A stretch of 8,922 nt of DNA, from the IMG/VR virus record IMGVR_UViG_2660238499_000001. The stretch is one strand, 5' to 3'. Made by a program: the position numbers and the translations under genes. Below the pieces are notes generated by a model. It had not been told where the DNA came from. It was given only the letters and a program-made list of their open reading frames with translations, and ran no database searches. Positions 1,391 to 1,699 of the stretch are shown here, one piece after another. The stretch comes from a virus. Taxonomy: Duplodnaviria > Heunggongvirae > Uroviricota > Caudoviricetes. Each line of letters opens with the position of its first letter. The first letter of the stretch is position 1.

Positions 1391-1699
1391 TTAATATACG
1401 ATCTGGTCTACATGATTACCAAAATCATCGTCGTCGTCCTCATCGCCACCATCTACAGATGGCCAATCAACAAACCAGCCAGCGTAAAGATGCAGCGTTC
1501 GGAGAACATCACTTGCGGGAGCATCAAGGGTGTTAACGAATCCCATATAGCTATTGGGATTTGCCCCAGCTATGGCTTCAGTGATCATGTCCTCGGTAAT
1601 GTCACCGGAGATAATGCTTAAACGCCCGGAAACTTCTTCATTATCATCAAATTCGATAATGGCATCTCCGCCTAATGGCGCTGCGATTTTAATCTGCAT
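1391..1699 (-). CDS. Small highly acidic hypothetical protein (102 aa), last gene of the operon
   Basis: Strong SD (AAGGAG, 7 nt spacer) before the ATG at 1697-1699. The start lies inside the 3' end of the upstream gene (ATGcagatTAA overlap). By hand count about 22 Asp+Glu vs 3 Lys+Arg, including a DGGDEDDDDD run. Confidence 0.7.
   Translation of the reverse strand: MQIKIAAPLGGDAIIEFDDNEEVSGRLSIISGDITEDMITEAIAGANPNSYMGFVNTLDAPASDVLRTLHLYAGWFVDWPSVDGGDEDDDDDFGNHVDQIVY

What the first reader, a model, noticed from the sequence alone, without database searches (positions are those of the whole stretch)
1391..1699. Translationally coupled 102-aa hyperacidic protein: candidate DNA mimic or packaging partner
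By hand count the protein has about 22 acidic and 3 basic residues, including the run DGGDEDDDDD (coords 1424-1453). It has a strong SD, and its start codon sits inside the 3' end of the ddrB-like gene. Small, very acidic phage proteins such as Ocr and ArdA act as DNA mimics that inhibit type I restriction enzymes, and this one sits inside an antirestriction operon.
Basis: partly seen in the sequence, partly recalled or inferred. Interest (0 to 1): 0.6.

Follow-up and report, generated by a model that had tools for sequence, protein, structure and literature searches.

The report
Phage P1 hxr: acidic DdrB-coupled protein
The ORF is the known but uncharacterised phage P1 gene hxr, a real and very acidic small protein that always travels with the protease-like end of the anti-restriction protein DdrB, so it is more likely a dedicated DdrB partner than a DNA mimic or the "repressor" it is annotated as.

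Summary
Window 1391-1699 (minus strand) encodes a 102-aa protein with 22 acidic and 3 basic residues (pI about 4). It has an AAGGAG Shine-Dalgarno 7 nt upstream, and its start lies 11 nt inside ddrB.

It is not new. It is hxr (P1_gp021; OdaA in P7), the last gene of the late darA operon, 96% identical to P1 Hxr.

The database label "homolog of Xre, possible repressor" fails every test run here. So do Ocr and ArdA membership. The predicted fold is a roughly 80-aa alpha/beta core plus a roughly 22-aa disordered acidic tail, and it matches nothing known.

The family is small (about 30 clusters) and confined to P1-like phage-plasmids. Its core is under purifying selection. The SD and the start inside ddrB are conserved down to 29% identity.

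hxr tracks the C-terminal HExxH (metallopeptidase) module of DdrB:
- It is present wherever that module is.
- It is absent from D6-like elements whose ddrB is truncated.
- A similar coupled acidic ORF follows a ParB-less HExxH protein in Pantoea plasmids.

Best reading (confidence 0.45): Hxr is a stoichiometric partner, either inhibitor or chaperone, of the DdrB C-terminal module. The DNA-mimic idea is untested and unsupported, though not excluded.

Interest is modest.

The parts
1391..1699 (-). hxr CDS (102 aa plus stop). It is the orthologue of P1 Hxr (P1_gp021), P7 OdaA and ORFVIII of AJ000741.
   Evidence: ORF list. 96% aa identity to P1 Hxr by tblastn, and the P1/P7 annotations. PHROG 2292 at E 1e-57. 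Core dN/dS 0.2-0.3.
1460..1699 (-). Folded core, aa 1-80: three beta strands, two helices, and the conserved motif VLR(S/T)L..GW.V.WP.
   Evidence: AF2 on a 20-sequence alignment gives pLDDT about 85 for residues 1-82. Invariant residues are G53, V65, L66, R67, L69, W75, W79 and P80.
1394..1459 (-). Disordered acidic tail, aa 81-102 (net -9 here). It includes DGGDEDDDDD (1424-1453) and ends in IVY.
   Evidence: pLDDT below 50. Family tails carry net -8 to -14, are 47% acidic, and have no basic residue in 17 non-redundant members. The D-run length varies from 4 to 8 among close relatives.
1707..1712 (-). Shine-Dalgarno AAGGAG, 7 nt before the hxr ATG. It is encoded by the Lys-Glu codons of the DdrB C-terminus.
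   Evidence: Sequence. AAGGAG or AAGGAA at the same spacing in most homologous junctions examined; the exception is L004 (CAGGAG, TTG start).
1689..1699 (-). 11-nt overlap between the ddrB stop and the hxr start (translational coupling).
   Evidence: The same 11-nt overlap (14 nt in L006 and JK004, 17 nt in L021) occurs in all related loci.
1689..4676 (-). ddrB (995 aa): N-terminal DdrB-ParB domain, a variable middle, and a C-terminal HExxH (MPTase) module.
   Evidence: Pfam PF18763 at E 5e-39 on aa 36-167. PHROG 2299. MPTase assignment and 76-kDa processing from Iyer et al. 2017.
2049..2063 (-). HELGH (HExxH) motif of DdrB, aa 872-876.
   Evidence: Motif search. LWHE(L/V/I)GHH is invariant in six DdrB homologues and in the Pantoea 535-aa protein. 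Pfam and PDB sequence searches do not recognise the domain.
1812..1994 (-). Conserved basic patch of DdrB, aa 895-955 (net +6 here, +5 to +8 in homologues). I speculate that it is a docking site for the acidic Hxr tail.
   Evidence: Charge profile and alignment. The docking role is inference only.
1295..1326 (-). 12-bp stem hairpin after hxr, the likely operon terminator. It lies inside the stretch annotated as terminator in P1 record AJ000741.
   Evidence: RNA fold gives z -2.4 for 1270-1395. AJ000741 annotation. The simple terminator scan did not call it.
8359..8377 (-). Late promoter LPdar (-22 box and -10), identical to P1. It drives lydA through hxr.
   Evidence: P1 annotation and sequence comparison.
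4689..8330 (-). Rest of the darA operon: ddrA 4689-5054, darA 5051-6970, hdf 6972-7583, lydB 7561-8004, lydA 8001-8330.
   Evidence: Pfam and PHROG hits. P1 annotation.

Best explanation
The ORF is P1 hxr, the last cistron of the late darA operon.

I propose that Hxr is a dedicated partner of the C-terminal HExxH (zincin-like MPTase) module of DdrB. Translational coupling would make it in roughly equimolar amounts with DdrB in the phage-producing cell. It would bind that module, perhaps with its poly-acidic tail on the conserved basic patch next to the HExxH motif. It would then either hold the peptidase in check or keep DdrB competent for processing (108 to 76 kDa) and incorporation into the procapsid. 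This is analogous to a cognate protease inhibitor, an immunity protein or an effector chaperone.

Shown:
- Gene identity.
- Coupling to ddrB.
- Purifying selection.
- Architecture (folded core plus acidic tail).
- Co-occurrence with the HExxH module.

Inferred:
- Physical binding.
- Which face of DdrB is bound.
- Whether the effect is inhibition or chaperoning.
For: (1) The SD and the start inside ddrB (11-17 nt overlap) are conserved in all related loci, at 29-46% protein identity.

(2) In the phage collection, 20 records hold full-length DdrB and 20 hold Hxr. Both sets are listed in full and are the same 20 records. Phage D6 keeps only DdrB aa 1-454 and has no Hxr. Phages with only the ParB-like domain have none either.

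(3) In PLSDB, Hxr is in 504 records and the DdrB HExxH end in 508, with nearly matching genus counts. The N-half is in 605 records, and the excess is D6-like.

(4) DdrB is mosaic. JK004 and L006 share 85-91% identity with the window over aa 1-475. They share only 29-50% over aa 476-995, and 42-45% in Hxr. So hxr shares its history with the C-terminal half.

(5) In Pantoea P1-like plasmids the gene after ddrA encodes a 535-aa protein with no ParB domain. Its C-terminus aligns to DdrB 777-989 (E 1e-26). A coupled 109-aa ORF follows it, with net charge -15 to -17 and an acidic tail.

(6) Hxr was not among the 27 virion proteins detected, while all six Dar proteins were. That fits a helper left behind in the producer cell.

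(7) hxr is non-essential, as the other dar genes are.
Against: - Adjacency confounds points 2 to 4. A single deletion or recombination event would move or remove ddrB-3' and hxr together whatever their function.
- Homology of the Pantoea ORF to Hxr is not established (hhalign probability 2.8%, P 0.016).
- The MPTase assignment rests on the HExxH motif and on Iyer et al. 2017. Pfam and PDB sequence searches do not detect the domain.
- Absence from the virion proteome is weak evidence. Hxr yields only four tryptic peptides of 4, 22, 41 and 35 aa, and the study required two unique peptides.
Confidence: 0.45

Rival explanations
1. Hxr is a seventh, so far undetected, virion-packaged Dar component. 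It would be injected with the DNA and act in the recipient cell. It could mimic DNA or an acidic-tail ligand, or it could act as a counter-ion or partner for the very basic Hdf (pI 10.2) inside the head.
For: - It is encoded in the operon whose other products (Hdf, DarA, DdrA, DdrB) are all packaged.
- DdrA, a proven packaged component, is also small and acidic (121 aa, net -14).
- The 2-unique-peptide cutoff could have missed Hxr, since only one tryptic peptide has a convenient size.
- A fused tandem Hxr-Hxr protein exists (P0015, L021), which fits a dimeric working unit.
Against: - Hxr was not detected in CsCl-purified virions, while DdrA (13 kDa) was.
- Reviews and the 2026 cryo-EM study list six Dar proteins without Hxr.
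- No capsid-targeting signal is known for it.
- Its phyletic pattern follows the DdrB C-terminal module, not Hdf or DarA, which D6 keeps without Hxr.
Confidence: 0.2
2. Hxr is a free-standing, trans-acting DNA mimic of the Ocr/ArdA kind that sequesters type I restriction-modification enzymes.
For: - Net charge -19 over 102 aa and pI about 4.
- It is the most acidic ORF in eight related loci.
- It lies in an anti-restriction operon.
- Acidity is conserved across the family.
Against: - The folded core is only 17% acidic, with about six positionally conserved carboxylates. The invariant residues are hydrophobic or aromatic, plus one Arg.
- About half the net charge is on a disordered tail.
- It is expressed from the late promoter LPdar, too late to protect incoming DNA unless packaged.
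- Dar protection is strictly cis, whereas a titrating mimic would also protect co-infecting DNA.
Confidence: 0.1
3. Hxr is an Xre-like transcriptional repressor, as in the current GenBank and RefSeq annotation ('possible repressor; homolog of Xre').
For: Only the original annotation note, which cites 28% identity over about 58 residues to a phage Xre repressor. Later records copied it.
Against: - No HTH family hit for the window protein even at E up to 10, and none for 20 family members at E up to 1.
- No PDB hit by profile search.
- pI about 4 with 3 basic residues is ill suited to DNA binding.
- It is the last cistron of a late structural and anti-restriction operon.
Confidence: 0.02

Closest known systems
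Phage P1 Hxr (P1_gp021, YP_006490); P7 OdaA; ORFVIII of the darA operon record AJ000741; PHROG 2292
   Same: It is the same gene. Protein identity to P1 Hxr is 96% (4 substitutions). It has the same position after ddrB, the same 11-nt overlap and the same downstream terminator region.
   Different: Nothing of substance. Downstream, this window has an IS1 end at about 1291 in place of P1's isaB. The function of Hxr is uncharacterised in everything I could read. It scored non-essential by CRISPRi.
DNA-mimic anti-restriction proteins Ocr (T7 gp0.3) and ArdA
   Same: Small size, very low pI, and a location in a mobile element's anti-restriction locus.
   Different: - No sequence or structural similarity.
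- The charge is concentrated on a disordered tail rather than on a rigid surface.
- It is expressed late rather than first on entry.
- The P1 Dar phenotype is cis-acting.
Cognate small partners encoded just downstream of an enzyme or effector: staphostatins with staphopains, AprI/Inh with serralysins, colicin immunity proteins, type III secretion effector chaperones. This comparison is from general knowledge.
   Same: A small, acidic protein of about 100 aa sits immediately 3' of, and is co-translated with, a large enzyme that must stay harmless or export-competent until delivered. It co-occurs with the catalytic module.
   Different: There is no homology or fold match to any of these. Binding is unproven. 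The target is a virion-packaged polyvalent protein, not a secreted toxin or protease.
DdrA, the small acidic Dar component in the same operon
   Same: 121 aa, net -14, pI 4.07, same operon. It is the next most acidic ORF class in these loci.
   Different: No sequence similarity; it belongs to a separate PHROG, 1855. DdrA is detected in virions and Hxr is not. D6 keeps ddrA but lacks hxr.

Membership tests
P1 Hxr / PHROG 2292 | Sequence similarity over the full length | tested here: met
   PHROG 2292 at E 1.1e-57, covering 1-102 of 105 profile positions. 96% identity to P1 Hxr.
P1 Hxr / PHROG 2292 | Position as the last gene of the darA operon, overlapping the ddrB 3' end | tested here: met
   The same arrangement appears in divergent loci.
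Xre / Cro-C1-type HTH repressors | Helix-turn-helix domain detectable by profile (e.g. Pfam HTH_3) | tested here: not met
   No Pfam family at E up to 10 for the window protein. No HTH family among 20 members at E up to 1. Profile search against PDB gave only RapA at E 0.22.
Xre / Cro-C1-type HTH repressors | All-alpha five-helix fold | tested here: not met
Ocr (T7 gp0.3) family | Sequence or fold similarity to Ocr | tested here: not met
   No Pfam hit. No PDB sequence hit. No structural hit in PDB or BFVD.
ArdA family | Sequence or fold similarity to ArdA | tested here: not met
   Same searches as for Ocr.
DNA-mimic proteins (a functional class, not a homologous family) | High negative charge density and low pI | tested here: met
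   Net -19 over 102 aa, pI 4.05. Conserved in the family.
DNA-mimic proteins (a functional class, not a homologous family) | Carboxylates displayed on a rigid folded surface with phosphate-like spacing | tested here: inconclusive
   About half of the net charge lies in a tail with pLDDT below 50. The core is 17% acidic with about 6 conserved acidic columns.
DNA-mimic proteins (a functional class, not a homologous family) | Binds a DNA-binding protein in competition with DNA | not testable with these tools
   This needs pull-down or EMSA competition with M.EcoKI or HsdRMS.
DNA-mimic proteins (a functional class, not a homologous family) | Present in the recipient cell before restriction, through early expression or virion delivery | tested here: inconclusive
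   The gene is driven by the late promoter LPdar. It is not in the published virion proteome, but its tryptic peptides are unfavourable.
P1 Dar anti-restriction system component | Encoded in the darA or darB operon | tested here: met
P1 Dar anti-restriction system component | Packaged in the head, and its loss changes plating on type I R-M hosts | not testable with these tools
   Published lists name six Dar proteins without Hxr. hxr is not mentioned in the supplement describing the 29 knockouts of PMC9024508. Piya et al. 2017 could not be read.
Cognate inhibitor, immunity or chaperone partner of an adjacent enzyme | Immediately downstream of, and translationally coupled to, the enzyme gene | tested here: met
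Cognate inhibitor, immunity or chaperone partner of an adjacent enzyme | Co-occurs with the catalytic module and is lost when the module is lost | tested here: met
   Physical linkage confounds this test.
Cognate inhibitor, immunity or chaperone partner of an adjacent enzyme | Physically binds and modulates the enzyme | not testable with these tools
   No complex prediction was possible because the structure jobs were exhausted. It needs co-purification or AF-Multimer.

The most novel reading that the evidence does not exclude
Hxr may define a new-fold anti-defence or regulatory protein. There are two versions.

(a) It is an injected acidic mimic. A small folded core would carry a poly-Asp/Glu tail ending in a hydrophobic tip, reminiscent of the SSB C-terminal tail, and would block a host DNA-binding defence or repair protein.

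(b) It is the first described trans-acting regulator of the self-processing metallopeptidase domain that is shared by many phage and plasmid 'polyvalent' effector proteins.

My evidence excludes neither. Version (b) is a sharper form of my best explanation.
Probability: 0.2. Interest if true: 0.6.

Novelty: already known. Interest (0 to 1): 0.33.

Why it matters
P1 is a workhorse phage, and its Dar system is a model for virion-delivered anti-restriction. Three points follow.

1. The widely copied label "putative repressor Hxr" is almost certainly wrong and should not be propagated.

2. If Hxr controls the processing or packaging of DdrB, it is a missing piece of the ordered Dar assembly pathway. 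It would also be a handle on how the MPTase domains of polyvalent effector proteins are kept in check.

3. If it were instead a DNA or acidic-tail mimic, it would add a new fold to the anti-defence repertoire.

All of these can be tested with one clean deletion and one co-expression experiment in a well-developed genetic system.

Tried and rejected
**Dead ends**
- Single-sequence AF2 gave a useless model (pLDDT 38). The alignment-based model was used instead.
- The afdb50 fold library was not available.
- Pfam, NCBIfam and PDB sequence searches were empty for Hxr.
- Pfam and PDB sequence searches were also empty for the DdrB C-terminal 246 aa.
- Łobocka et al. 2004 and Piya et al. 2017, the papers most likely to discuss hxr, are not held.
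- Only two held papers mention hxr, both in gene tables.
- Rfam found nothing in the window.
- No tandem DNA repeat underlies the D-run.
- The simple terminator scan missed the hairpin that RNA folding shows.

**Ideas considered and rejected or downgraded**
- Xre-like repressor: rejected.
- Ocr or ArdA membership: rejected.
- Homology between the Pantoea 109-aa ORF and Hxr: left open, because hhalign gives only P 0.016.
- SSB-tail mimicry: kept only as speculation, because the C-terminal residue (Y, N or H) is not a conserved aromatic.
- Antisense ORFs inside hxr (1412-1621 +, 1554-1706 +): no support.

Full report
**What the window is**

The window is a P1-type (Punavirus) phage-plasmid segment carrying the darA anti-restriction and lysis operon on the minus strand.
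- Genes: lydC-like 8398-8679, lydA 8001-8330, lydB 7561-8004, hdf 6972-7583, darA 5051-6970, ddrA 4689-5054, ddrB 1689-4676, then the ORF in question at 1391-1699.
- Megablast of 1100-2000 finds P1, P7, SJ46, RCS47 and relatives at 96-99% identity.
- In those records the ORF is annotated hxr (P1_gp021, 'possible repressor; homolog of Xre'), odaA (P7) or ORFVIII (AJ000741).
- The P1 late promoter LPdar is present unchanged at 8359-8377.
- A 12-bp hairpin at 1295-1326 lies within the stretch annotated as the operon terminator in AJ000741.
- So hxr is the last cistron of a late operon.

**Observation check**

- 102 aa, 16 D + 6 E against 1 K + 2 R, net -19, pI about 4.05.
- DGGDEDDDDD is aa 83-92, which maps to 1424-1453.
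- AAGGAG lies at 1707-1712, 7 nt before the ATG.
- The ddrB stop is at 1689-1691, giving an 11-nt overlap.
- The acidity is not a chance feature. Hxr homologues are the most acidic of 200 ORFs of at least 80 aa in eight related loci. The clustering of acidic residues is reached by 61 of 20000 shuffles.

**Is it a real gene?**

Yes.
- The family keeps its length (95-105 aa), frame and motifs down to 29% identity.
- Core dN/dS is 0.2-0.3 for pairs with measurable dS.
- The tail evolves fast in sequence but keeps its composition. It is 47% acidic, with no basic residue in 17 non-redundant members.
- The D-run varies from 4 to 8 residues among close relatives.

**The family**

An exhaustive HMMER scan of 1.84 billion representatives found 18 hits. 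Two of those were spurious repeat proteins. A profile search of 5.8 billion proteins found 32 clusters. The named members come from Escherichia, Salmonella, Klebsiella, Citrobacter and Rosenbergiella. In PLSDB, 504 plasmids carry it, most of them about 90-100 kb and non-mobilizable, which is typical of P1-like phage-plasmids.

**Architecture and fold**

- AF2 on a 20-sequence alignment gives mean pLDDT 76, about 85 for residues 1-82 and below 50 for the tail.
- Secondary structure: strands at 2-6, 12-16 and 28-32; helices at 36-44 and 62-71.
- Invariant residues are G53, V65, L66, R67, L69, W75, W79 and P80.
- The only invariant charged residue is an arginine. Only about six core columns are conserved as acidic.
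- The fold is therefore an orphan, with the caveat of a shallow alignment.

**Tests of named families**

- *Xre-type repressor.* No HTH profile hit at E up to 10 for the window protein, or at E up to 1 for 20 members. No PDB hit by profile search. The topology is wrong, and the pI is 4. The annotation rests on 28% identity over about 58 residues and should be regarded as unsupported.
- *Ocr and ArdA.* No sequence or structural similarity (same calls).
- *DNA mimic as a functional class.* Only the charge criterion is met.
  - About half of the net charge is on a disordered tail.
  - The gene is expressed late.
  - Hxr was not among the 27 proteins found in purified virions, while all six Dar proteins were.
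  - Dar protection works only in cis.
  - The proteome argument is weak. Hxr gives tryptic peptides of 4, 22, 41 and 35 aa, and the study required two unique peptides.

**What hxr travels with**

1. *Conserved coupling.* In every related locus, AAGGAG or a one-base variant (AAGGAA, CAGGAG) sits 7 nt upstream. The start lies 11 nt inside the ddrB 3' end (14 nt in L006 and JK004, 17 nt in L021).

2. *Co-occurrence in phages.* In the phage collection, 20 records hold full-length DdrB and 20 hold Hxr. Both sets are listed in full and are the same records. Phage D6 has ddrB truncated to 454 aa (aligning to aa 2-475) and no hxr, although it keeps hdf, darA and ddrA. Phages with only a DdrB-ParB domain lack hxr.

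3. *Co-occurrence in plasmids.* In PLSDB, Hxr is in 504 records, the DdrB C-terminal 145 aa in 508, and the N-terminal half in 605. The excess is the D6-like group at 60-80% identity. Genus counts for Hxr and the C-terminal end nearly coincide.

4. *Mosaic DdrB.* Against JK004 and L006, aa 1-475 are 85-91% identical, aa 476-850 about 29%, and aa 851-995 about 48-50%. Hxr is 42-45% identical. A recombination break near aa 475 therefore separates a conserved N-half from a 'C-half plus hxr' block.

5. *Pantoea plasmids.* In Pantoea P1-like plasmids (L017, L019) the gene after ddrA encodes a 535-aa protein with no ParB domain.
   - Its C-terminus aligns to DdrB 777-989 (30% identity, E 1e-26) and keeps LWHEVGHH.
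   - A coupled 109-aa ORF follows it, with net charge -15 to -17 and an acidic tail.
   - Profile-profile comparison with Hxr is colinear over 67 columns but not significant (P 0.016). I therefore treat this ORF as a positional analogue, not a proven homologue.
   - Pantoea eucalypti pEuc3 has the ParB half only and no such ORF.

**Interpretation**

The small acidic protein follows the HExxH module of DdrB, not the ParB-like domain and not Hdf or DarA.

DdrB is reported to be processed to about 76 kDa before packaging. Iyer et al. attribute this to autoproteolysis by the C-terminal MPTase.

The simplest mechanism is that Hxr is made one-for-one with DdrB and binds its C-terminal module. It would then act as an inhibitor that times self-cleavage, or as a chaperone or adaptor for incorporation into the procapsid.

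A basic patch (net +5 to +8 over aa 895-955) next to the HExxH motif is conserved in all six DdrB homologues. It is an obvious candidate docking site for the tail. In the Pantoea lineage I counted by eye that the corresponding region is near neutral, and the tail there is less acidic. With only two lineages this is a hint, not evidence.

Binding, the site of binding and the direction of the effect are all inference. The co-occurrence evidence, apart from the Pantoea case, is confounded by physical linkage. I put this explanation at 0.45.

**Rivals**

- A packaged seventh Dar component acting in the recipient cell: 0.2.
- A trans-acting Ocr/ArdA-like DNA mimic: 0.1.
- An Xre-like repressor: 0.02.
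- The remainder is unknown.

A fused tandem Hxr-Hxr protein (P0015, L021) suggests a dimeric working unit. That fits several of the models.

**Novelty and score**

The feature is an already catalogued gene of a model phage. CRISPRi scored it non-essential. No paper I could read reports a function for it.

What is new here:
- The rejection of the 'repressor' label.
- The core-plus-acidic-tail architecture.
- The link to the DdrB C-terminal module.

Interest is modest (0.33). It would rise if Hxr proved to be a regulator of polyvalent-protein peptidases or a new-fold mimic.

Noticed in passing
window 1-1291: Insertion-sequence debris replaces P1's isaB downstream of hxr. There is an IS3-family (rve) transposase C-terminal fragment at 12-377 (+). 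There is also an IS1-family element with broken insA and insB frames (582-905 and 961-1125, minus strand), whose end abuts P1-homologous DNA at about 1291, only 4 nt from the terminator hairpin.
   Followed up: partly
window 1-1400 versus NZ_CP034659.1 (L022): The only 100% match to window 1-1400 is a 454-kb IncHI1B/IncY E. coli ATCC 98082 plasmid. There, an IS26 sits about 335 bp upstream of hxr and cuts ddrB, and the ddrB N-half lies 43 kb away on the other strand. The window is therefore not contiguous in that record, and hxr can persist after ddrB is disrupted.
   Followed up: partly
window 1689-4676 (ddrB), near aa 475 (about window 3252): DdrB is a mosaic with a recombination or truncation hotspot near aa 475. 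The N-half is up to 91% identical between lineages whose C-halves are 29-50% identical. D6-like elements end the protein at this point.
   Followed up: yes
L017 2759-4695; L019 6397-8330: Pantoea P1-like plasmids carry a ParB-less 535-aa HExxH protein plus a coupled 109-aa hyperacidic ORF in place of ddrB-hxr. That ORF forms a six-member family (alignment A3) with no annotation.
   Followed up: partly
L021 8001-8555 (P0015): A 184-aa tandem fusion of two Hxr units follows ddrB in one metagenomic P1-like contig. The first unit has a shortened acidic tail.
   Followed up: partly
window 1424-1453: The poly-Asp run varies in length among near-identical relatives: D4 in P7, D5 here and in P1, D6 to D8 in other E. 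coli plasmids. This suggests codon-repeat slippage or relaxed constraint on tail length.
   Followed up: no
window 3724-4155 (+): A 143-aa antisense ORF inside ddrB lies where P1 annotates iddB. It has no Pfam hit and I checked no conservation, so it may be a spurious ORF.
   Followed up: no
window 4689-5054 (ddrA): DdrA is also strongly acidic (121 aa, net -14, pI 4.07, no Arg). Its homologues are the second most acidic ORF class in these loci. Hdf is the opposite (net +21, pI 10.2). Charge complementarity among Dar proteins may matter for assembly.
   Followed up: no
window 8398-8679: A second LydA-type holin gene (lydC in P1) lies upstream of LPdar and therefore outside the late darA transcript.
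   Followed up: no
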